Source of the DNA: Planctomycetota bacterium
GTDB taxonomy: Bacteria; Planctomycetota; MHYJ01; JACQXL01
DNA length: 64,000 nucleotides
Direction of reading: 5' to 3'
NCBI GenBank assembly: GCA_043801445.1
Contig: JAZDMB010000030.1
Coordinates: 78,178-142,177, forward strand
Shown here: piece by piece, positions 3,617 through 55,424 of the stretch
How positions within the stretch are numbered: position 1 is the first letter of the stretch
Layout: every line of letters starts with the position of its first letter
Notes under the pieces: generated by a model
What the model was told of the DNA's origin: nothing
Databases searched by the model: none
Seen by the model: only the letters and a program-made list of their open reading frames with translations
Made by a program: the position numbers and the translations under genes

Positions 3617-3865
3617 TAATGATGAAACCACGGATACACACTGATAAACACTGATTTTCATTATTCGTATTAATCAAATCCATAAATAAACACAGATTAT
3701 CTGCGTTCATCTGCCTGCCTACTTGGTGTTAATCTGTGGTTGCAATTTTAGATATCATCATTTTTGGAATATAATCATTCTTACAAATTAATCTTCAATT
3801 TATTTGACCTGACTCATATCGAATGTTATGCTTTATAAAAAGTCATAGGATTCCTATAAAATAAT

Positions 3866-8727: not shown

Positions 8728-8916
8728 TAGGCTGTCTAAAAAGCAACCACAGATACACACCAAGTAGGCAGGCAGATGGACACAGATAAATCAGTAGGTA
8801 GTAGGTAGAAAATAGTAGGTAGGAAAAACTCCCTACATTCTATCTCTTATAATATCAGTGTTTATCCGTGTTAATCTGTGGTTACGAAGTTTTCTTGAAA
8901 TAAAGGAGGATTTTAT

Positions 8917-19531: not shown

Positions 19532-19715
19532 GAACGTGAAACCACAGATAGACACGGATAAACACTGATTTTTATATGGGTTAATCAAATCCCGATTAAA
19601 CACTGATTATCTGTGTTCATCGGTGTTCATCTGTGGTTGTCATACCTGTGGCAGATCCGCCTTTGGCGGACAGTTTTCTTGACCCCGTTTGGAATATTTT
19701 ATATATTCATATAAT

Positions 19716-26504: not shown

Positions 26505-26690
26505 TGAATAATTTAAGATTGTTGCCAAAAATAACAATTTCACCCTGAACAAAATAACAAATCTTAAAGCTGTGCTTGATAACCTACCTAAGGTAAATTG
26601 TGATTCTTAGCTAAGTTTATTAAGTTTTCAGCGGGGCTCGAATAACACCGTTAATGAATTTCTAAACGGTCTCATATTGGATAAAGTTTT
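26505..26690 (+). ncRNA. conserved structured element (copy 1) in the cysS 5' leader region; second copy at 53745-53905
   Basis: Shares blocks with 53745-53905: 'agattgttg...caatttcaccctgaac', 'ctgtgcttg', 'acaccgtt...aacggtctcatatt'. Two hairpins are conserved with compensatory changes (attgtt-N9-aacaat vs attgttgac-ttt-gtcaacaat; accgtta-N-taaacggt vs accgttgaaa-N-tttcaacggt). Confidence 0.45.
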
Positions 26691-32175: not shown

Positions 32176-32688
32176 TTACATCCTATGGGTATGACAGATA
32201 GCAATTGCCAGAGCATCTGAGATGTCATAAGGTTTGGGTATTGTATCTAAAGATAAAAGGTGTTTAACCATTTCAGCCACCTGGCTTTTATCAGCCCGTC
32301 CGTTGCCGGTGACACTCTTTTTCACTTCTGCAGGGCTATATTCATAGACAGGCGTTTTGGTTATAGCTGCAACGAGTAATGCGATGCCCCTTGCCTCGCC
32401 TATTTTTATGGTTGCTTGCACGTCTTGAGAATAAAATACTGTTTCTATGGCTATTTCATCAGGTTTGTGTTGTTTGATTATCTTGAATAGCTCTTGATAA
32501 CTGATGAGCAAACGGGATGCCAGATTACTAACATCAGATATTAACTTAAAATTCTTAATTTGAGATGTGGAATTTTTAACTGAAGTTTTGATTGCTCCAC
32601 AAGTAATAATTTTTAAGTTAGATTTCTCTGATTGAATAATTCCATAACCGATTATTAGCGTGCCAGGATCAATACCTAATATAATCAT
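32176..32688 (-). CDS. ruvC: crossover junction endodeoxyribonuclease RuvC
   Basis: 'MIILGIDPGTLIIGYGII' N-terminus and ~165 aa size are characteristic of RuvC. Confidence 0.85.
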   Translation of the reverse strand: MIILGIDPGTLIIGYGIIQSEKSNLKIITCGAIKTSVKNSTSQIKNFKLISDVSNLASRLLISYQELFKIIKQHKPDEIAIETVFYSQDVQATIKIGEARGIALLVAAITKTPVYEYSPAEVKKSVTGNGRADKSQVAEMVKHLLSLDTIPKPYDISDALAIAICHTHRM

Positions 32689-32691
32689 ATT

Positions 32692-33543
32692 TTACTCGGA
32701 AGATAATACTTCGCAAATTCGATCCAATCTAAATTGGCGGATTTCATCAGCTTGATGGCAATGTGCTGCCACATATGTACTGCCACGAAATGAAAATATA
32801 TTAAAAGGCGTTATCCATCTTTGAGATTCTTCGCCTTTATTATTGCGGTAGGTTATTTCAATCGGTATAGATTGTTCCATTGCTTTTTTTAAGATTATTT
32901 TGTCAGGTGGTATTTCTATTTTATCAAATATATAATCATTAAACTTTAATCCACCAGTAGAACGAAGAGCAATATCATTTATAGTCATTTTGGAATCTAA
33001 TCGATCAAGACACATCTTATAAAGTTTCATAACTACATACGAATCAGCCAGAGCGCGGTGATATCCGGATTGCTCATTGCTGCCTACAAATGCTTCGACG
33101 GGCGGACAGGCAATATTCAGATATTTGCCCAGAGTTGATAATTTATGATTTTCTACATCTTTGAAGCATATTCTCGCTAATTCACAGGTATCAATCAAAA
33201 GATTAGAAGGTGACTTGATTTTATAAAGAGCCGCTGATGCCATCAGAAAACTGACGTCAAATGATATATTATGTGCAATCAAAGGATTGTTATTGATAAA
33301 CTCTAAAAATTTAGATAATGCTTCTCTTTCAGACGGTGCATTTTTTACCATTTCGTCGGTAATGCCGTGTATTTCTATGACTTCCTGCGGAATAGAAATT
33401 GCCGGATTAATAAAGGTTTGAAAAGTATTAATAATTTCAGTATCCTTTTCAAGATTAAAACAAACAGCACCGATTTCTATTATCTTATCCTTAATCGGAT
33501 ATAAGCCCGTGGTCTCAAAATCAAATGCTACAATATTGGTCAT
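32692..33543 (-). CDS. DnaQ-like 3'-5' exonuclease (DEDDh family) with C-terminal extension
   Basis: Exo I motif 'IVAFDFETTGL', Exo II 'AHNISFDVSFL', Exo III 'YHRALADSY'. Confidence 0.7.
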   Translation of the reverse strand: MTNIVAFDFETTGLYPIKDKIIEIGAVCFNLEKDTEIINTFQTFINPAISIPQEVIEIHGITDEMVKNAPSEREALSKFLEFINNNPLIAHNISFDVSFLMASAALYKIKSPSNLLIDTCELARICFKDVENHKLSTLGKYLNIACPPVEAFVGSNEQSGYHRALADSYVVMKLYKMCLDRLDSKMTINDIALRSTGGLKFNDYIFDKIEIPPDKIILKKAMEQSIPIEITYRNNKGEESQRWITPFNIFSFRGSTYVAAHCHQADEIRQFRLDRICEVLSSE

Positions 33544-33755
33544 ATATTTAGTTTTTGGTTATTAGCGATGGCTAAATAGCGCAGTAAAACCAGAAATTAT
33601 ATAATTTTGTAATATAATCCTGCTAATTTAAGTATGTCAAATAAAAGAGGGTAAATAGTTGACAATGTTAATAATTAATTATTAATATACTGAGTATTAT
33701 CATTATTAAACCCGCCTGACCAGTCGGGGATGCAACTTGAAAGAGGAGGTATTTC

Positions 33756-43636: not shown

Positions 43637-43798
43637 ATATGTTTTTCAACATTTTATACTAAAGATAAATTAACTTAGCAAGAAGAAAGAGAAAGATATG
43701 ACAATTAATCTGTGTAATCTGTGGCTCAAGTTTAGCTCCTAAAAAGCCGATAAATACTTAACATCACTAATATATAATTCTTCAACAAGGAGTATGTT

Positions 43799-46345: not shown

Positions 46346-47530
46346 ATGATGAAAAGAGAAATCACGAACGCCCCGAAGTTATCGGGACGGAGTTTATCCC
46401 GCTGTTGGCGGGGTTGCGACTTCGCAAAACAATGGTTTCTTATTCTCCTGACCTGTCTTTTACTGGTTGCCTCTGTTGCCTACGCCGATAAAGAACAACC
46501 ATCTGATTTAACGCCTTCTATCAACACACCTATAACACCTACCGCTGTTTCCGGCATTCCCCTTAAGGTTCATTACATAGATGTTGGGCAGGCGGATTGT
46601 ATTCTTATCCAGATTCCAAATGGCAAAAATGTTCTCATTGACGCAGGTAATAGCTGTGACGCGGATAAAATAGTTTCTTATCTTCAACATCAAAAAGTTA
46701 AGAAATTAGATAACGTAATAGCCACACATCCGCACGCAGACCATATGGGCGCAATGGATACAATAATCAACAAATTTGATGTTGGTAAATTTATAATGCC
46801 TAATGCAACCTCTATTTCCAATACATTTAGTAAGGTAGTTACCACAAATATTGCATATATTGAAAAGCATCTTGAGATTACCTACGCCCATCCGGGGTTA
46901 CTAATAGACCTCAGTCCCAATATAACCGCACAAGTTATAGCGCCAATCTCTCCTACTTATCAAGGCAAGGACAAAGAAAATAATTATAGCATTGTTATTC
47001 ATTTGGAATTCGGCAAAACTTCCTTTTTATTTATGGGTGACGCGCTAGAAGAATCAGAAAATGAAATACTCAAATCCGGATTTGATATTAAGTCTGATGT
47101 ATTGAAAGTCGGCCATCACGGAAGCAAGACATCTACCGGCACAAGTTTTTTACGGAAAGTTCACCCATCGTATGCTGTTATTCCTGTCGGTAAAAACAAT
47201 ATATATGGACATCCTAAACAGATCACTTTAAAGAGACTTGAAGATGATAGGGTGCAAGTATTTAGAACAGACGAAAGCGGGACAATACTAATAGAATCCG
47301 ATGGCAAGGATTTAAAAGTTACTACTGAACGTAAACCAGAAAGCATACAAACAGGTTCTAAAAAAGCTGACGAAAACCCGGAAGAAGTTAAGATTTATGT
47401 TACAAGGACAGGGACAAAATACCACCGTGCCGACTGTGAATATTTAGCCAAGTCAATGATACCAATTTCGCTTAAGGAAGCCAAAAAGAGAGAGTATGAA
47501 CCTTGTAAGGTATGCAACCCTCCTAAGTAG
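46346..47530 (+). CDS. metallo-beta-lactamase fold protein (ComEC C-terminal domain-like)
   Basis: 'VHYIDVGQADCILIQ...VLIDAG', 'ATHPHADHMGA' (HxHxDH), 'KVGHHGS'. C-terminal 'YHRADCEY...CKVCNP' Cys-rich tail. Confidence 0.65.
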   Translation: MMKREITNAPKLSGRSLSRCWRGCDFAKQWFLILLTCLLLVASVAYADKEQPSDLTPSINTPITPTAVSGIPLKVHYIDVGQADCILIQIPNGKNVLIDAGNSCDADKIVSYLQHQKVKKLDNVIATHPHADHMGAMDTIINKFDVGKFIMPNATSISNTFSKVVTTNIAYIEKHLEITYAHPGLLIDLSPNITAQVIAPISPTYQGKDKENNYSIVIHLEFGKTSFLFMGDALEESENEILKSGFDIKSDVLKVGHHGSKTSTGTSFLRKVHPSYAVIPVGKNNIYGHPKQITLKRLEDDRVQVFRTDESGTILIESDGKDLKVTTERKPESIQTGSKKADENPEEVKIYVTRTGTKYHRADCEYLAKSMIPISLKEAKKREYEPCKVCNPPK

Positions 47531-47984
47531 GCAACGACTTGCGGGAGTCCCGACCGAACGTCGGGGGATGCCTGCCTGCGCTAAAGCTTCGGCGGGTAAT
47601 CCATACCTAATTATCCATCCGTAAAATCTGTTTTATCAGTTTAATCCACTTACAGATTCTTCGTATTTCTTACACACTAATATTAAATCCGTGTTCATCT
47701 GAGTTCATCTGTGTCCCATATTTCTTTGCGGTGAATCTTCTCTTAACCTACCTACTACCTACTTCATACTGCATACTACATACTATTAATTCGTGTCAAT
47801 CTTGTGAAATCTGTGGTTACGTTTCGGTTTTTATTTACCGTATTCCTCTTTCTTCTATCCGTAAGGATACCATAAGTAACGGGTTTGTTACTTATCCGGC
47901 AGGTATGAGAAATGAAGGTTTCATCTAACTTCTTGATTTGAAATGGATTAGAAAAAATAAAAAAATATGCAGAAATCCGAAAAT

Positions 47985-48250
47985 AGCACTCTCTGTTACT
48001 TATGGGGACCTATCCACTACGGGATTCTACCCTACCTACCTATGGTTATATGGGGTATATCCTATGGTTAGTAGGGATACTACCTATGGTTATATGGGGT
48101 ACTACCTATGGTTAGTAGGGATACCTCCTATGGTTATATGGGATACTACCTATGGTTATATGGTATACCTCTACTGGAGGGTACGGTATCCCCCCTGGGT
48201 AGGTAGGGTAGTATAGGGGGGAGATAGGGGGATGGGGGTATACCTAATTT
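47985..48250 (+). repeat. degenerate tandem array (~22-bp unit 'tacctatggttatatgggGatac', ~8 copies) ending in a G-run block
   Basis: Unit copies are visible directly. Ends '...ggggggagatagggggatgggggtatacc'. Read-through ORF 47938-48216 is periodic and judged non-coding. Confidence 0.75.
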
Positions 48251-48647
48251 TGGTAAAGTGATGCCTTAAAACTGGTTTATATCGTTGGATTAACTAAAGA
48301 CGGTGGGTGTCATTAAGCCAAGTGTATAGTATAAAGTATGAAGTAGGTAGTATGTAGAAGGTAGGAGAAGAGAAGACGTAAGATTTGCCACAGATTAAGC
48401 GGATTTGGCGGAATGCCTCAAATAAACGGTGAATTGTCTTGACAAAGGATTAGGGAATATGTATTAATTCACAATAGATATGGATAATTCGGGTGACGCT
48501 CTCCTACGCTCTTTGAGCGGAGTTTATCCCGCTCACAGCGGGGGAAGGGCAAGCCATACCGCATAGTTAAGATGTCCACGGAATTATGCGGGTGACAGCA
48601 TACTGAATTCCAATAATAAATATGTATTATGTATCCTGAATATAAAT

Positions 48648-49595: not shown

Positions 49596-50100
49596 GCAGG
49601 GGGGGGTATACCCCCTCTACTGCCTCAGTAGAGGGCATCTACTGGATTATTAACCCATATCTCCTGAGGTAGTAGGTGGCGTCTGCTGAGGTATCTGACC
49701 ACCTCTCCTAAGATAGTAGACTGTATCTGCTGAGGTACCTGACCATCTCTTCTGAGATAGTAGACGGCATCTGCTGGATTGTCAACACCCCGCCACTGAG
49801 TTAGGGGGTGGTATCTGCCGGATTGGCAGCCCATGTCTCCTGAGATAGGGGATAGTATCTGCTGGATTATTAACACATCTCTCCTGAGGTAGTAGACGGT
49901 ATCCGGTGAGTTACCCGACCATATCCCCTGAGGTAGTAGATGGTATCTGCTGAGGTATCCAACCATATCCCCTGAGGTAGTAGATGGTATCTGCTGAGAT
50001 ATCCAACCATATCCCCTGAGATAGTAGATGGTATCTGCTGGATTGTCAACACCCCTCCACTGAGTTAGGGGGTAGTATCTGCTGAGTTACCTCCACCCTG
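49596..50100 (+). repeat. degenerate tandem array (~45-bp unit 'ccatatcccctgaggtagtagatggtatctgctgaggtatccaa', ~9 copies), inverted relative to the 47985-48250 array
   Basis: Unit contains 'ggtatccaaccatatcccctgaggtag', which resembles the reverse complement of the upstream unit ('ggtatccccatataaccataggtag'). Begins with the palindrome 'ggggggtataccccc'. Confidence 0.7.
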
Positions 50101-50127
50101 ATTAGAAATTTTGGTTGTTAGATTATG

Positions 50128-50296: not shown

Positions 50297-50623
50297 TTAT
50301 TCTATAATTCTCGGCACCTCGAAGAAATTACCTTTCCGTTTTGGCGCATTTTGGAGCGCTTTGTCAGGTGTCAATGAATTCTGATGTGCCTTATCATCCC
50401 GCCAAATACCCGCCTGACCGGCCGTCAGTTCGGGCAGGTTCAAGTGTTTTTCGTCCAAGGAATGTATTAATGGCTCGATATTAGTTACGTCTATTTCCTT
50501 AAGGCTGTCCACATAAGCGAGTATCTCTGACATGCCTTGTTTGAGTGATTCTTTGTCTTGAGGAGATACGGAAAGCCGCGCCAGTGAACAAAGATGCTCG
50601 ATAAGTTTATCGTCTATTTTCAT
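50297..50623 (-). CDS. gatC: aspartyl/glutamyl-tRNA amidotransferase subunit C
   Basis: 'MKIDDKLIEHLCSLARLSVSPQDKESL...ILAYVDSLKEIDVTNIEP...NFFEVPRIIE' matches GatC over its full length. Start taken at the internal Met. Confidence 0.75.
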   Translation of the reverse strand: MKIDDKLIEHLCSLARLSVSPQDKESLKQGMSEILAYVDSLKEIDVTNIEPLIHSLDEKHLNLPELTAGQAGIWRDDKAHQNSLTPDKALQNAPKRKGNFFEVPRIIE

Positions 50624-50802
50624 AGTGAATTTCCTTACTAACCACAAGATTTCACAAGATTAACACGAGAAAATAACCTTTATATAAAATCTGGTGAAAA
50701 TCTCGTGCTAATCTCGTGGTTTATATTTACCTACTACTACCATTCCCTCAAGCGGGACAAATTAGTGTCCCATTATTAAATTTAATAAATCTGTGTACTT
50801 AT

Positions 50803-51478: not shown

Positions 51479-53677
51479 TTATAAGAATTTAATTACTTTA
51501 CTGATACGCACGGTCCATTTTTCCTGGGGCTGCAGTTTTATTTCCCAGCGGGGCAGAATCACGGATGATTGGTAAACCAGTTCGAATCCGCTTTCGGACT
51601 GTGACACAGTCTGCACAGGGAAATACCATATCTGAGCCGGTTTAGTCAATTTAAAACCGATGTCTATCTTTTGGAATAAGTCCTTGATTCCGAATATTTT
51701 TTCATTACTTGATTCGCCTTCTGTAATAAGCGGTCCCAGATTGGGTTTACTGTCATAATAGAATCTGTCAGGCGCATTGCCGGCTAACATCGACAGGTTG
51801 AATTCGGGAGCAAAGATAGTTTCAAGATAGTCCGAACCGGTGTTTATAATCTCGTAATCTATCAAGAGGGTTTTATTGTCATTGGAATCAAATGCTATAT
51901 TCTTGCTGACTTTTATCGGGCATGGTTTTTCAGGTTTTTTAAGATAGCCGTCCCGATGGAATTGAACCGCAGTGTTGTTTTTAAGAATGGATATTTGGTA
52001 TTCATTGAGTATAAAATCGCCTTCTTCGTCATAATTACAACAGGCAAAATTCTTCAATGATGTATTTTTATCCAGGAAATGGTCAAGAAGACTCTGACGC
52101 GGGTACTTATCATAGTAGAGCAGGTTTTCCAAGCCGGCCACTTTGGACACAATAATATCGTGTATGGTGGCGACATTAGTAACATAATTTTTATCCTGCG
52201 CCTGAAGTATTTTCTGGTGATAGGATTCCTGTCTGCGTCTGAGCGTGGCTAAAGGATTGAACTTTTTAGGGATGATATCCATCTCGTAAAGAGCCGCTCC
52301 TTGAGATGGTTTGAAATAACAATTAATAATCCTGTTGGAATAACGTAATTCAGGATATCCGTCATAATCAAAATCACCCTTGTCTATCCGGTTTTTAGCC
52401 GTCTTTTGGGATGTTTCTGATTCGGAGATAATTTCTTCAGCCGTTATAAGATGCTGATAAATAGCGTGCCTGAGGTGGGGGAGATAGAATCCGCCGAAGA
52501 CGCCATGCCAATAGGCGCAATTACCCTGGCCTTGATAAAGTTCACGCCCGGCATCTGCCAATTTCCGGCTGTCTTTTTTATGATGTTGTTCTGCAGACGA
52601 TGCCAAAGCCTTGCTGACTTCCATCATCTTGGAATACATTATGTTTATCTCAGGGTATTTCACTAAGAAATTACGCCAGAAACCGCCGGGGTTAAGTGTA
52701 AATTCGGAAGAAGATGTCTGATGTTGCTTATTAGCCAGAGGCGGATCTGCCTCAGGCACAGGGTAGCAAGAAGAAGACCGCTTCCGATAGTTTTCATAGA
52801 GCGTTGCGGCATCAATTGATAAGACCCATTCCATCATTTCACGATAAGAACCGCTGGGGATATATGCTTTACCGATAGGCTTTATTTTATCTATGACTTC
52901 CGAATATGTCGTTATGTTGAGCCAGTCTTGGGCATCATTTAAGGCTTGGAAGAATCGTTCCAGCCAGCCGACGGGACTGCCGTAACAATGCTCGTATGTC
53001 TTGGGCCAAAGCCCGAATTTCTCGCCATCATCGGCATAGCAAATTACCGAATCAGTATTTTTATAACTGTCCTGCCGATAATGAGAGAGGTAATTTATCG
53101 TTTCTATCGGTTCTTTGAAAGGTATCATATAGCGGAGTCTTTCAGGAATAGGGAAAATAGAAATTGCCTTGCCCTGGTCTTCGCTGATAAAATAGCCCGA
53201 GAGTTCCTTATTCAAGAATCCGGTGGTCTTAAAATGGAAATCGTCTATTACAGTATATTCGACACCTGCTTGGGCTAAAGATTTTACGAGGCTTTGTTCC
53301 CAAACCCTTTCAGCCAGCCATATTCCACGCGGACGTTTACCGAAAAGCTTTTCCAGATAATCGCTGAATAGGGCAATCTGCCCGATTTTATCGTCATCTG
53401 TAAGCATCGTCAAAATCGGCTCATAAAAACCGCCGCCCAGTATTTCCAGCCTGCCGTCATTTACCATTTTTTGGAGGCGGCTGATAAATTTAGGATGGCT
53501 GCGTTTTAGGTATTCTAAAAGAGGACCGCTATAATGCATGCATAATTTTATCCGCGGGAATTTGTCTATTAAATTAAGGAATGGTTCATAACTCTGCCGA
53601 TAGGCTGATTCCATAATATCATCAAAATTACCCACAGGCTGATGATTATGGATGCATAAGATAAAATTTAGCGACAT
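51479..53677 (-). CDS. glycoside hydrolase family 57 protein (alpha-amylase / alpha-glucanotransferase / branching-enzyme type)
   Basis: 'LNFILCIHNHQPVGNF' (GH57 HQP motif), 'YEPILTMLTD', 'GIWLAERVWE' catalytic region. Additional C-terminal ~250-aa domain. Confidence 0.8.
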   Translation of the reverse strand: MSLNFILCIHNHQPVGNFDDIMESAYRQSYEPFLNLIDKFPRIKLCMHYSGPLLEYLKRSHPKFISRLQKMVNDGRLEILGGGFYEPILTMLTDDDKIGQIALFSDYLEKLFGKRPRGIWLAERVWEQSLVKSLAQAGVEYTVIDDFHFKTTGFLNKELSGYFISEDQGKAISIFPIPERLRYMIPFKEPIETINYLSHYRQDSYKNTDSVICYADDGEKFGLWPKTYEHCYGSPVGWLERFFQALNDAQDWLNITTYSEVIDKIKPIGKAYIPSGSYREMMEWVLSIDAATLYENYRKRSSSCYPVPEADPPLANKQHQTSSSEFTLNPGGFWRNFLVKYPEINIMYSKMMEVSKALASSAEQHHKKDSRKLADAGRELYQGQGNCAYWHGVFGGFYLPHLRHAIYQHLITAEEIISESETSQKTAKNRIDKGDFDYDGYPELRYSNRIINCYFKPSQGAALYEMDIIPKKFNPLATLRRRQESYHQKILQAQDKNYVTNVATIHDIIVSKVAGLENLLYYDKYPRQSLLDHFLDKNTSLKNFACCNYDEEGDFILNEYQISILKNNTAVQFHRDGYLKKPEKPCPIKVSKNIAFDSNDNKTLLIDYEIINTGSDYLETIFAPEFNLSMLAGNAPDRFYYDSKPNLGPLITEGESSNEKIFGIKDLFQKIDIGFKLTKPAQIWYFPVQTVSQSESGFELVYQSSVILPRWEIKLQPQEKWTVRISKVIKFL

Positions 53678-53744
53678 ATTTAGATTTTGTTCCCTAATTT
53701 CATATGTGTAGATTTAATTTTATATATATGAGATTGTTGACTTT

Positions 53745-53905
53745 GTCAACAATTTCACCCTGAACGAAGTGAAGGGTCTCAAACCCGCCTGACCGGATGA
53801 CCAGTCGAACAGAACTGTGCTTGGTGAGATTCTTCGCTTCCCACCGGGCCCCTGTGGGTCGCTCAGAATGACACCGTTGAAAGGTTTTTCAACGGTCTCA
53901 TATTA
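53745..53905 (+). ncRNA. conserved structured element (copy 2), paralogous to 26505-26690
   Basis: See copy 1. Both hairpins are retained with compensatory substitutions. Not positioned as a 5' leader of any + strand gene. Confidence 0.45.
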
Positions 53906-54055
53906 CGAATAAAGACAAGATTTTAATAAGATTTTGTAAGAGATGGAGAAACGATTGCCTAGAGATAAAAAGAAAAAGGGCGTTCCGATGTTTATCAGAA
54001 CGCCCTTGATTTAAATCAAGATGTTATATCACAGTTTCAGATAAAATGCAGCACC

Positions 54056-54772
54056 TTACTCTGCTGGCCCCCAGTTTCTGCCACCTGCGCCAGTTGACTG
54101 GGTGGGTGAACCACCAGCAGTTGTAGCAGGCCAAGTGAGAGGATTAGCCGCAGCCGGTCCACAATTCCAAGCGGCATTTGCGCCACCTTGGTCTGTTGAA
54201 TAGACTGTGCCACCTTCGTTTACAATAAACATATTGACACCGCTTGACCCATAAGCTTCAGGTGCAGCGGCAAAAGCAAAAAGACTATTATTACACGCGG
54301 CCACAGCTGCAACGCCAACCGTGTTTACTTTATAAAGAGCTCCTGAGGCGATATAAGTGGTTACTAATGCTCTGTATAAATAACCTGATTTTGCAGTCTT
54401 TACAAGTGCTGTTGCTCCTGCATCCCAATCTTCAAAGACTGGAGTTGCACCAAAAACATCATCAACCGCTCTGGAGTCATCAGCTCTGGCATAGGATATA
54501 TCAATGAAATTAACCTTTGTAGTGCCATCTGCCCGCGTCATACGGTTAAAACAAGAAAGATCATATGTCCAATAGTCTTTTGTTCCATTGCCATCACAAT
54601 CTTGCTGTTTCCAGATAGCTTCCTGTGAAGTGAGTGTTTTCAATCCTGCAATCGCGCTGGTCTCATTTGCAGACATACGGCCGGTTAACAGATTCGGGAT
54701 AGCAATAGCCGCGATAATCGCAATAATGGCGATTACTATCATCAGTTCAATCAGTGTAAAACCTTTACGCAT
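54056..54772 (-). CDS. prepilin-type N-terminal cleavage/methylation domain protein (type IV pilin / pseudopilin-like)
   Basis: 'MRKGFTLIELMIVIAIIAIIAAIAIPNLL' is the canonical class III signal peptide (G/FTLIE). Start taken at the internal Met preceding this motif. Confidence 0.7.
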   Translation of the reverse strand: MRKGFTLIELMIVIAIIAIIAAIAIPNLLTGRMSANETSAIAGLKTLTSQEAIWKQQDCDGNGTKDYWTYDLSCFNRMTRADGTTKVNFIDISYARADDSRAVDDVFGATPVFEDWDAGATALVKTAKSGYLYRALVTTYIASGALYKVNTVGVAAVAACNNSLFAFAAAPEAYGSSGVNMFIVNEGGTVYSTDQGGANAAWNCGPAAANPLTWPATTAGGSPTQSTGAGGRNWGPAE

Positions 54773-55424
54773 ATAGCTCCTTTCAGTTATAGTTATATTT
54801 TCGTTCTCTGATGGAGTATAAGAGAACGATTTCAACAATTTGTATCGCTTAGTTTTATGTGTTCTATATATTCTTATCACCTCCTTTATCTTTTATAGAA
54901 CCCATAAATCAAGAATACTCTATTGTTTGATTTAATTATATAGCAATTCTTATACCTGATTCTTGTAAATATGTCAATAAAATAATAAAATATAAGTAAT
55001 ATCCTTAACTTATTTATTAGTATGCAGATAAGAAAATAATTAAATTCAGTTAATAATAAAGCTATTAATAATCAACAATAACCTTACATAAAATACACTA
55101 TTAATTGTCATAATATACCATTTTTTGTAGCTGTTGTAGCAATTTTTTGTGTATATCTCTTATACTGCAGACAAAAGCGAGTAAAGTGCTTTTTGTTTCG
55201 CATGTATTTATCAGCAATAGAGCGATTGCTATAATCATGATTAAATAAATTGATGAAGCGATGCCATTCGGTGAATTTAGACGGCCATGTTCCTTTTCAT
55301 GCTTACCTTCTCAAATCAAGTAAAGAGACAATTCAACTCCACATCCTTGACCTAAAACACACAGCATAATGTTTACCTTGAATTTTTATTGACTATTTCG
55401 AGAATAATTATTTTAGTGTTTATA

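What the first reader, a model, noticed from the sequence alone, without database searches (positions are those of the whole stretch)
53745..53905. Structured element copy 2 between GH57 and pilin genes, plus a partial copy 5' of etfB
This is the second full copy, on the + strand between two minus-strand genes, so it cannot act as a cis leader for a + strand gene. The block 'aaacccgcctgaccggatgaccagtcgaac' within it recurs as 'aaacccgcctgaccagtcgggg' at 33700-33722, just upstream of etfB, suggesting a modular element family.
Basis: seen in the sequence. Interest (0 to 1): 0.5.

Follow-up and report, generated by a model that had tools for sequence, protein, structure and literature searches.

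The report
Nested hairpin mobile element upstream of GH57
The "structured element" is a small non-coding mobile DNA insertion that carries even smaller GC-rich inserts, one of which is the flagged submotif; it shows how layered selfish repeats pepper this genome, even inside genes, and it is not a regulatory RNA.

Summary
Window 53730-53899 (+) is a second copy of the element at 26515-26673, and AAACCCGCCTGACC recurs at 33708.

The element is not a conserved RNA. It is a 170-nt palindromic non-coding insertion of the MITE type.
- A related Planctomycetota MAG has the same pilin-GH57 spacer without it (an empty site).
- Copies are flanked by 4-5 nt AT-rich direct repeats (ATAT here).
- Five metagenome contigs carry a 120-nt canonical form.
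- Rfam has no match.

Copy 2 equals the canonical form plus two nested GC-rich inserts of 30 nt and 20 nt. The flagged submotif is the start of the 30-nt insert. It belongs to a separate family of 21-30-nt modules (CCCGCCTGAC...GGGCAGG):
- in frame in this genome's gatC, absent from two orthologs;
- in frame in the relative's GH57, absent here;
- 44 exact 21-mers in IMG/VR contigs, 41 of them inside long open frames.

The etfB site is a short member, not a partial copy of the element. A relative has a diverged sequence of equal length there.

The inner hairpins belong to a REP-like unit found in several phyla. The mobilising enzyme is not identified. An IS5/IS1182-type transposase is a weak candidate.

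The parts
53726..53729 (+). Left flanking direct repeat ATAT (putative target-site duplication)
   Evidence: Same 4-mer on both sides. The empty site in L023 has 4 nt fewer of the (AT)n run. Flanks match within each other copy as well.
53730..53754 (+). Outer hairpin O1 (GAGATTGTTGAC-TTT-GTCAACAATT), left terminus
   Evidence: 12-bp stem in the consensus fold. The left terminus mirrors the right one: GAGATTGTTGA against GAGACCGTTGA.
53755..53780 (+). Hairpin unit A (TCACCCTGAACGAAGTGAAGGGTCTC), a REP-like unit
   Evidence: The same unit occurs in Deinococcota, Elusimicrobiota, Bacteroidota and 71 IMG/VR contigs. Its stem positions covary.
53781..53825 (+). Linker between units A and B (AAA...ACTGTGCTTGGT), interrupted by the 30-nt nested insert
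   Evidence: Canonical copies read TCTCAAAACTGTGCTTGGTGAGA without interruption.
53784..53813 (+). Nested 30-nt GC-rich module m1 (CCCGCCTGACCGGATGACCAGTCGAACAGA); contains the flagged submotif
   Evidence: Absent from canonical copies L096, L104 and L103b. Same family as the gatC insert and the L104 copy.
53826..53871 (+). Hairpin unit B (GAGATTCTTCGCTTC|GCTCAGAATGA), the inverted partner of unit A, split by a nested insert
   Evidence: Reverse complement is GTCATTCTGAGCGAAGCGAAGAATCTC, the commonest unit in IMG/VR. The A:B pair forms a long helix in the MFE fold.
53841..53860 (+). Nested 20-nt GC-rich insert (CCACCGGGCCCCTGTGGGTC) at the loop apex of unit B
   Evidence: Absent from canonical copies. 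L103a carries a different 33-nt GC-rich insert at exactly the same position.
53872..53899 (+). Outer hairpin O2 (CACCGTTGAAAGGTTTTTCAACGGTCTC), right terminus
   Evidence: 10-bp stem. It is compensated relative to O1: TT/AA becomes CC/GG.
53900..53903 (+). Right flanking direct repeat ATAT
26515..26673 (+). Copy 1, an older decayed copy between the efflux-pump gene and cysS
   Evidence: It keeps both termini, the linker CTGTGCTTG and GATTCTT. The 3' half of hairpin A has decayed, mostly by G>A changes.
33711..33729 (+). Short m-type module (CCCGCCTGACCAGTCGGGG) in the etfB 5' untranslated region
   Evidence: 14-nt identity to m1. Relative L130 has a diverged, AT-richer sequence of the same length at this place, so it is not polymorphic there.
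50409..50438 (+). 30-nt m-type module inserted in frame in gatC (reads LPELTAGQAG on the minus strand)
   Evidence: Absent from the gatC orthologs of L022 and L024, which are 82-86% identical in protein.

Best explanation
Copy 2 is a non-autonomous mobile DNA element of the MITE type, with a mosaic palindromic build. It is not an RNA gene or a cis-regulator. The canonical element is 120 nt and two-fold symmetric. It has an outer hairpin at each end (O1, O2) around an inverted pair of REP-like hairpin units (A, B) joined by a 15-nt linker. It inserted into an AT-rich site 53 nt upstream of the GH57 start codon and is flanked by a 4-nt direct repeat (shown). After, or along with, that event it acquired two smaller GC-rich inserts: 30 nt in the linker and 20 nt at the loop of unit B (shown by comparison with canonical copies). 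The 30-nt insert belongs to an independent family of 21-30-nt modules. These also land in coding sequence, where their lengths are multiples of three, and they add 7-10 residues to proteins (shown for gatC here and for GH57 in a relative). The etfB motif is a short, old member of that module family (inferred). Inferred mechanism: the 120-nt element is moved in trans by a DDE transposase of the IS5/IS1182 type, which makes a 4-5-bp duplication. The nested REP-like units and modules spread by a process that leaves no duplication and favours hairpin loops. Any effect on GH57 expression would be a side effect of adding 170 nt of structured DNA to its upstream region.
For: - Empty site: L023 (GCA_043807745.1, GH57 86% identical) has the same pilin-terminator-GH57 spacer, alignable on both sides, with the element and 4 nt of the AT run missing.
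- Flanking direct repeats match within each copy and differ between copies: ATAT/ATAT, AAAT/AAAT (three copies), AATAT/AATAT, AATTT/AATTT. Copy 1 has ATTT/ATAT.
- Multiple copies: 2 in the window, 2 on the 3.2-kb contig L103, and copies in 5 of 104 metagenome hits. Copy 2 is about 97% identical to canonical copies outside its inserts.
- Symmetry and structure: single-strand folds give z about -5 to -6 on both strands.
- Copy 1 has lost hairpin A by point mutation, so there is no sign of selection for an RNA fold there.
- No Rfam family matches, and no terminator lies inside the element.
- Nested inserts are clean indels against canonical copies.
- Module family: 30-nt in-frame insert in gatC, absent from 2 orthologs; 21-nt in-frame insert in L023 GH57, absent from the window, L022 and L024; further copies in L104, L130 and L008; 44 exact 21-mers in IMG/VR, 41 inside open frames of 100 codons or more, in all six frames.
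- Unit A/B: 80 units in 71 viral contigs, 20 of them as inverted doublets. The three variable stem pairs are Watson-Crick in 80, 79 and 80 of 80 units, although the search pattern allowed mismatches.
- Candidate mobiliser: the IS in L025 (DUF772 + DDE_Tnp_1 + DDE_Tnp_1_6) has a 4-bp duplication (TGTG). Its ends GAGCTTGTCTAAAAAC and GAGCATGTCTAAAAACC match the element's ends at 11 of 16 and 12 of 17 positions.
Against: - No transposase lies in the 64-kb window, and no HUH/Y1 ORF was found in any held locus by motif search.
- The link to the L025 IS rests on about 70% similarity over 16-17 nt of one element. That IS duplicated TGTG, not an AT-rich site.
- The duplication at copy 2 lies in an (AT)n run, so slippage could explain 4 extra nt at this one site.
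- Duplication length appears to vary (4 or 5 nt).
- Five of six substitutions in stems among canonical copies give G-T wobbles on the + strand. This hints at selection on one single strand, which a purely double-strand transposase model does not predict.
- The 30-nt insert in copy 2 is itself not a stable hairpin (z about 0).
- The etfB site is not an insertion polymorphism.
Confidence: 0.72

Rival explanations
1. REPIN/BIME-type element: the whole structure, including the outer hairpins, is spread by a single-strand-specific HUH tyrosine transposase (RAYT or IS200/IS605-like) that recognises the hairpins. No DDE transposase is involved.
For: - The A/B units behave like REPs: 25-27-nt imperfect palindromes, covarying stems and inverted doublets with 2-73-nt spacers.
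- Doublets in other phyla show no flanking duplication.
- Subterminal hairpins sit at both ends.
- Nested inserts sit at hairpin loops. REP dimers nested in longer palindromes and REPs inside genes are described in PMC3733652.
- There is a wobble bias toward one strand.
- An IS110-family element, a family that targets REPs, lies next to such units in L030.
Against: - Flanks of the 120-nt element match within each copy as 4-5-nt direct repeats. IS200/IS605-type insertion does not produce this.
- The units carry neither the GTAG nor the CGTC tag of the described REP super-families.
- No Y1/HUH ORF was seen in the window or the loci.
Confidence: 0.2
2. A functional structured RNA: a small RNA, an antisense RNA, or (read on the minus strand) a 5' leader of GH57.
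For: - Strong predicted folds on both strands: z -5.1 and -6.0.
- Several copies lie within 10-100 nt upstream of start codons. One sits directly after a TTGACA-17-TATAAT promoter.
- Stem substitutions are wobble-compatible on one strand.
Against: - The element is absent from the orthologous spacer of a close relative, where the gene is intact.
- Orientation relative to the downstream gene differs between copy 1 and copy 2.
- Two-fold symmetry means no single strand carries both units in their favourable (tandem G-A) form.
- Copy 1 has a decayed hairpin.
- No promoter or terminator signal exceeds shuffles.
- No Rfam hit.
- No compensatory double changes among copies.
Confidence: 0.05
3. For the etfB motif only: the 14-nt identity is a coincidence or convergence in an ancestral untranslated region, not a member of the module family.
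For: - A single 14-mer match occurs in 7% of simulated windows.
- Relative L130 has a sequence of equal length at the same place, so there is no indel.
- The motif is a weak hairpin.
Against: - The same 12-nt core occurs three times in 64 kb, all on the + strand, against 0.22 expected matches.
- The tail CAGTCGGG matches the family (CAGTTCGGG, CAGTCGGG).
- The L130 version differs mostly by GC-to-AT changes and keeps the family tail GGGCAGA, as expected for decay of a GC-rich insert.
Confidence: 0.2

Closest known systems
Bacterial MITEs (for example Correia/NEMIS of Neisseria, RUP of Streptococcus, Nezha of cyanobacteria); named from my own knowledge
   Same: 100-200 nt, non-coding, terminal inverted repeats, short AT-rich flanking duplication, multiple copies, intergenic sites close to gene starts, presence/absence between relatives.
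   Different: No sequence similarity. The termini are long (about 60 nt) and built from hairpin sub-modules. The duplication is 4-5 nt rather than TA. No parent IS is identified. The element carries nested secondary inserts.
REP / BIME / REPIN elements and their RAYT transposases (PMC3733652)
   Same: The inner units are 25-27-nt imperfect palindromes with covarying stems, arranged as inverted doublets and combined in mosaics. The paper describes REP dimers nested in long palindromes, and REPs inside genes.
   Different: Neither the GTAG nor the CGTC tag is present. No RAYT was found. The composite element has flanking direct repeats, which REPs lack.
Rickettsia palindromic elements (RPE); cited in PMC3733652
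   Same: Palindromic repeats inserted in frame in protein-coding genes and tolerated as extra peptide segments. The 21-30-nt modules in gatC and GH57 behave this way.
   Different: RPEs are about 100-150 nt and confined to Rickettsia. These modules are 21-30 nt and occur in Planctomycetota, Bacteroidota and IMG/VR contigs.
IS200/IS605-derived palindrome-associated elements
   Same: Subterminal hairpins at both ends, and a dependence on single-strand structure.
   Different: That family inserts 3' of a fixed tetra- or pentanucleotide without duplication. Here the two flanks match each other within each copy.

Membership tests
MITE | Short (about 50-500 nt) and non-coding | tested here: met
   170 nt in copy 2 and 120 nt in the canonical form. 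No gene is called in it.
MITE | Terminal inverted repeats | tested here: met
   GAGATTGTTGA... against GAGACCGTTGA... The whole element is two-fold symmetric.
MITE | Target-site duplication | tested here: met
   Flanks are identical within 6 of 7 complete copies (4-5 nt, AWWT) and differ between copies. At copy 2 the duplication lies in an AT run, so it is ambiguous at that single site.
MITE | Presence/absence at orthologous sites | tested here: met
   Empty site in L023.
MITE | An autonomous IS with matching termini | tested here: inconclusive
   The L025 IS (DDE, 4-bp duplication) matches the termini at 11 of 16 and 12 of 17 positions only.
REP/REPIN | 20-40-nt imperfect palindrome with a maintained stem, often in inverted doublets | tested here: met
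   True for units A/B: covariation in 80 units, and 20 doublets.
REP/REPIN | Conserved GTAG or CGTC tag at one end | tested here: not met
   The units start with GTCA and end with TC. No matching family sequence is in PMC3733652.
REP/REPIN | Associated RAYT (HUH Y1 transposase) gene flanked by the repeats | tested here: inconclusive
   None found by motif search in the window or in about 1.5 Mb of loci. Whole genomes could not be searched.
Curated structured RNA (Rfam) | Match to a covariance model | tested here: not met
   0 hits at gathering threshold. Only noise at E up to 10.
IS200/IS605-type palindrome-associated element | Insertion 3' of a fixed short target, without duplication | tested here: not met
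   Left and right flanks vary between copies but match each other within a copy.
RPE-like intragenic palindromic insert (for the 21-30-nt modules) | In-frame insertion in a conserved gene, absent from orthologs | tested here: met
   gatC; GH57 of L023; 41 of 44 IMG/VR copies lie inside long open frames.

The most novel reading that the evidence does not exclude
The window shows one instance of a hierarchical, cross-phylum system of nested micro-mobile elements. It has three layers. First, a 21-30-nt GC-rich module; its 21-nt form has no stop codon in any of the six frames, and it inserts into hairpin loops and, in frame, into protein-coding genes. Second, a REP-like 25-nt hairpin unit shared almost unchanged by Planctomycetota, Deinococcota, Bacteroidota, Elusimicrobiota and many viral contigs. 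Third, lineage-specific shells that turn pairs of units into transposable MITEs. This would imply an undescribed structure-targeting insertion machinery, possibly carried between phyla by phages, that remodels proteins in 7-10-residue steps.
Probability: 0.25. Interest if true: 0.7.

Novelty: new member of a known kind. Interest (0 to 1): 0.45.

Why it matters
For annotation: this element, its copy at 26515 and the small GC-rich modules should be masked as mobile repeats. They should not be reported as candidate riboswitches or small RNAs, and contig breaks next to them are to be expected.

For biology: the locus gives clean filled-versus-empty comparisons at three levels, namely a 170-nt element, a 30-nt insert in gatC and a 21-nt insert in a relative's GH57. 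These show that very small GC-rich modules move into hairpin loops and coding sequence in an AT-rich Planctomycetota lineage. The same 21-mer and the same hairpin unit occur in unrelated phyla and in viral contigs. If one mechanism lies behind this, it would be a general source of small in-frame protein insertions and of 5'-region remodelling.

Tried and rejected
- Rfam, at gathering threshold and at E up to 10: nothing relevant.
- Genome-collection scan with TCACCCTGAAC-gap-GAATRACACC: 20 hits, about the chance number, and none with the full element. Four of them revealed the widespread A/B architecture.
- Metagenome scan with the 18-mer: 104 hits, of which only 5 are complete or near-complete copies. 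nhmmer later found half-copies (O1 plus unit A) in two further hit loci, L052 and L109.
- Hybrid-promoter idea (outward TTGACA in O1 plus the AT-rich flank driving GH57): the scan gives no promoter there, and counts do not exceed shuffles. Dropped.
- Sequence-string and peptide-string literature searches: no relevant paper.
- Plasmid BLAST of the canonical element: no match.
- Protein search with the element's open 40-residue translation: no candidates.
- Viral scans for the outer-hairpin termini: 0 hits for O1; 3 hits for the O2 17-mer, which were not examined and were assumed to be chance matches.
- HUH/Y1 motif scan of all ORFs: none found. The regex may be too strict.
- Source contig look-ups by exact protein: not on record.
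- The 13-mer TGAGATTCTTCGC at 32822 lies in coding sequence without a hairpin and was judged to be chance.
- Resemblance of CCCGCnnnnGCGGGATAAACTCCG to a type I-E CRISPR repeat: this comes from memory only and has no Rfam support.

Full report
**Observation**

Copy 2 spans 53730-53899 on the + strand. It lies between the start of a minus-strand GH57 gene (51479-53677) and the end of a minus-strand prepilin-type gene (54056-54880), downstream of that gene's terminator at 53976-54007.

Copy 1 lies at 26515-26673. The two share exact terminal blocks: AACAATTTCACCCTGAAC, GAATRACACCGTT and AACGGTCTCATATT. Their centres differ.

The 14-mer AAACCCGCCTGACC is exact at 33708 and 53781. An overlapping 14-mer is exact at 50408.

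**Organism**

The closest GH57 and EtfB homologues are from Planctomycetota/Brocadiia MAGs. The window is about 40% G+C.

**It is an insertion, not a conserved RNA**

- A related MAG (GCA_043807745.1, locus L023, GH57 86% identical) keeps the pilin-terminator-GH57 arrangement. Its spacer aligns with the window on both sides. The element is missing, together with 4 nt of an (AT)n run: filled ...CGTA ATAT[element]ATAT ATATAAAA against empty ...TGTA ATAT ATATAAAC.
- Two other relatives' contigs break 36-45 nt upstream of GH57. This would fit a repeat lying there but proves nothing.
- Rfam gives no match at gathering threshold or at E up to 10.
- The element contains no terminator. Promoter-like hits do not exceed shuffles.

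**The family**

An 18-mer scan of metagenome contigs gave 104 hits. Five are complete or near-complete copies: L030, L043, L096, L103 and L104. nhmmer then found:
- a second copy on L103;
- half-copies upstream of an hpf-like gene in two further hit loci, L052 and L109;
- inner-only versions in L025 and L003.

The canonical form is 120 nt: GAGATTGTTGACAAAGTCAACAATT | TCACCCTGAACGAAGTGAAGGGTCTC | AAAACTGTGCTTGGT | GAGATTCTTCGCTTCGCTCAGAATGA | CACCGTTGAAGGGTTTTTCAACGGTCTC. These five segments are outer hairpin O1, unit A, the linker, unit B and outer hairpin O2.

It is two-fold symmetric. The differences between the two halves are compensated within each hairpin: TT/AA in O1 against CC/GG in O2, and CCCT/AGGG in A against TTCT/AGAA in B. 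As single strands, both strands fold far better than shuffles, with z about -6. The minimum-energy fold pairs A with B in one long helix, as in a REP doublet.

The flanks are direct repeats that match within each copy and differ between copies:
- ATAT/ATAT in copy 2;
- AAAT/AAAT in L096, L103a and L043;
- AATAT/AATAT in L104;
- AATTT/AATTT in L103b;
- ATTT/ATAT in copy 1.

This pattern is what a 4-5-bp target-site duplication gives. IS200/IS605-type insertion does not give it.

Copies sit 8-100 nt upstream of start codons. One lies directly after a consensus promoter, and one lies downstream of pyrG. They occur in both orientations.

**Copy 2 in detail**

Outside two clean indels, copy 2 is about 97% identical to the canonical copies. 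The two indels are:
- a 30-nt insert, CCCGCCTGACCGGATGACCAGTCGAACAGA (53784-53813), in the linker;
- a 20-nt insert, CCACCGGGCCCCTGTGGGTC (53841-53860), at the loop apex of unit B.

L103a has a different 33-nt GC-rich insert at exactly that apex. L103a and L043 carry inserts in the loop of unit A. The same roughly 32-nt module (CCGCCC..GGGCGAGsCTCGCCAAAGGCGG) occurs in L103a and L043 in opposite orientations and at different positions.

Copy 1 is a decayed relative. It keeps both termini, the linker core and part of unit B. The 3' half of hairpin A is mutated, mostly G>A, and it has its own AT-rich inserts. This argues against selection on an RNA fold.

**The flagged submotif**

It is the first 14 nt (with the preceding AAA) of the 30-nt insert, so it is not a piece of the element proper. 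It belongs to a family with shared ends, CCCGCCTGAC...(G)GGCAGG.

- The third occurrence in the window (50409-50438) is a 30-nt in-frame insertion in gatC. It encodes LPELTAGQAG and is absent from the gatC genes of L022 and L024.
- The reverse case also exists. GH57 of L023 carries a 21-nt in-frame member (PPDRQAG) that the window, L022 and L024 lack.
- Further members lie in L104 (30 nt), in ruvC of L130 (21 nt), and in the loop of a unit-A hairpin in Zunongwangia pacifica (Bacteroidota). That last one is 20 of 21 identical to the L130 copy.
- The 21-mer CCTGCCCGTCCGKCAGGCGGG occurs 44 times in 21 IMG/VR stretches, in unrelated flanks. Forty-one copies lie inside open frames of at least 100 codons. 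All six reading frames are used, and none of them contains a stop.

**The etfB site**

At 33711-33729 there is a short version, CCCGCCTGAC-CAGTCGGGG. The relative L130 has a sequence of the same length there, AGACATACCTAATTAGTAGGGCAGA. It differs mainly by GC-to-AT changes. A more distant relative (L131) is 9 nt shorter and not clearly alignable.

This site is therefore not a presence/absence polymorphism. I read it as an old member that has decayed in the relative. A single 14-mer match arises in 7% of simulated windows, so I keep coincidence as a rival at about 0.2.

The modules are only weak hairpins: -6.8 kcal/mol for the gatC copy and about -1.6 kcal/mol for the copy inside the element. 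"GC-rich, partly palindromic" is a safer description than "hairpin".

**The inner units**

The genome-collection scan returned the chance number of hits. Four of them (Deinococcota, Elusimicrobiaceae, Zunongwangia, and a gut 'cyanobacterium' MAG) show the same architecture: GTCA-hairpin-TCT...AGA-hairpin-TGAC.

A degenerate 25-mer for the unit finds 80 units in 71 IMG/VR contigs. Twenty are inverted doublets with spacers of 2-73 nt and no evident duplication. The pattern allowed mismatches at three stem pairs, yet these pairs are Watson-Crick in 80, 79 and 80 of the 80 units. Five of the six distinct sequences are fully paired. The unit is therefore a maintained hairpin of the REP type.

It lacks the GTAG and CGTC tags of the described REP super-families. 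That same paper documents REP dimers nested in longer palindromes and REPs inside genes, the closest published parallels I found (PMC3733652).

**Mechanism**

Shown:
- insertion polymorphism;
- matching flanks;
- multiple copies;
- nesting;
- in-frame coding inserts;
- hairpin covariation.

Inferred: who moves it. No transposase lies in the window, and no HUH/Y1 ORF was found in the held loci.

The only IS seen in a relative (L025; DUF772 + DDE_Tnp_1 + DDE_Tnp_1_6) makes a 4-bp duplication. Its ends are GAGCTTGTCTAAAAAC and GAGCATGTCTAAAAACC. These match GAGATTGTTGACAAAG and GAGACCGTTGAAAAACC at 11 of 16 and 12 of 17 positions. That is suggestive and no more.

I therefore favour trans-mobilisation of the 120-nt shell by an IS5/IS1182-type enzyme. 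The REP-like units and modules would spread by a separate route that leaves no duplication and favours loops.

One weak contrary hint exists. Five of six stem substitutions among canonical copies are wobble-compatible on the + strand. This would fit a single-strand intermediate.

**Verdict**

The "modular family" idea is right in spirit. The "structured RNA" and "partial copy" readings are not supported. The element is an undescribed member of known kinds: a MITE built from REP-like parts. The nested, coding-compatible 21-30-nt modules and their spread across phyla are the part worth following up.

Noticed in passing
window 52730-52786 (minus-strand GH57): A 57-nt in-frame insertion (RKRSSSCYPVPEADPPLAN) that contains the GC-rich hairpin GAGGCGGATCTGCCTC. 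It is absent from three GH57 orthologs (L022, L024, L025). A 6-nt insert lies at 52970-52975.
   Followed up: partly
IMG/VR loci L206-L226, especially UViG 2820306284: The exact 21-mer CCTGCCCGTCCGKCAGGCGGG is interspersed up to 11 times in 14 kb, almost always inside long open frames and in all six frames. It has no stop codon in any frame.
   Followed up: partly
window 46388-46413 and 48518-48543 (minus strand); L103 and L043 unit-A loops: Module CCCCGCnnnnnGCGGGATAAACTCCG. The first copy sits in a cluster of three GC-rich hairpins at the 5' end of the ORF at 46346-47530. From memory it resembles a type I-E CRISPR repeat, but no Rfam CRISPR-DR hit supports this.
   Followed up: partly
window 3623-3748, 8738-8883, 19537-19635, 43707-43732, 47687-47812, 50647-50730: Another palindromic repeat family (AACCACRGATnAACACnGAT...) in intergenic regions. 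In L025 similar sequences flank an inner A..B element as an alternative outer shell.
   Followed up: no
window 48036-48189, 49615-50126 and 47748-47784/48321-48357: Tandem arrays with 22-nt and 44-nt periods, and CTACCTAC-type inverted repeats, in a gene-poor stretch between the metallo-beta-lactamase-like ORF and gatC.
   Followed up: no
L030 407-1777: An IS110-family transposase gene (DEDD_Tnp_IS110 + Transposase_20) lies between A/B-type hairpin units and truncates a canonical copy. The contig changes from AT-rich to GC-rich across the shared unit and may be a chimeric assembly.
   Followed up: partly
L103 2090-2280: A canonical copy lies between a consensus TTGACA-17-TATAAT promoter and the ATG of a PHP-domain gene 8 nt after its end. 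The whole 120-nt element would therefore form that gene's 5' untranslated region.
   Followed up: no
L052 1759-1812 and L109 3409-3462: A half element (O1 plus unit A only) is kept at the same place, 10 nt upstream of an hpf-like gene, in two related contigs.
   Followed up: no
L130 ruvC (1-482, minus): The relative's ruvC carries a longer palindromic insert that surrounds a 21-nt module. The window's ruvC (32176-32688) has a different AT-rich segment at that position.
   Followed up: partly
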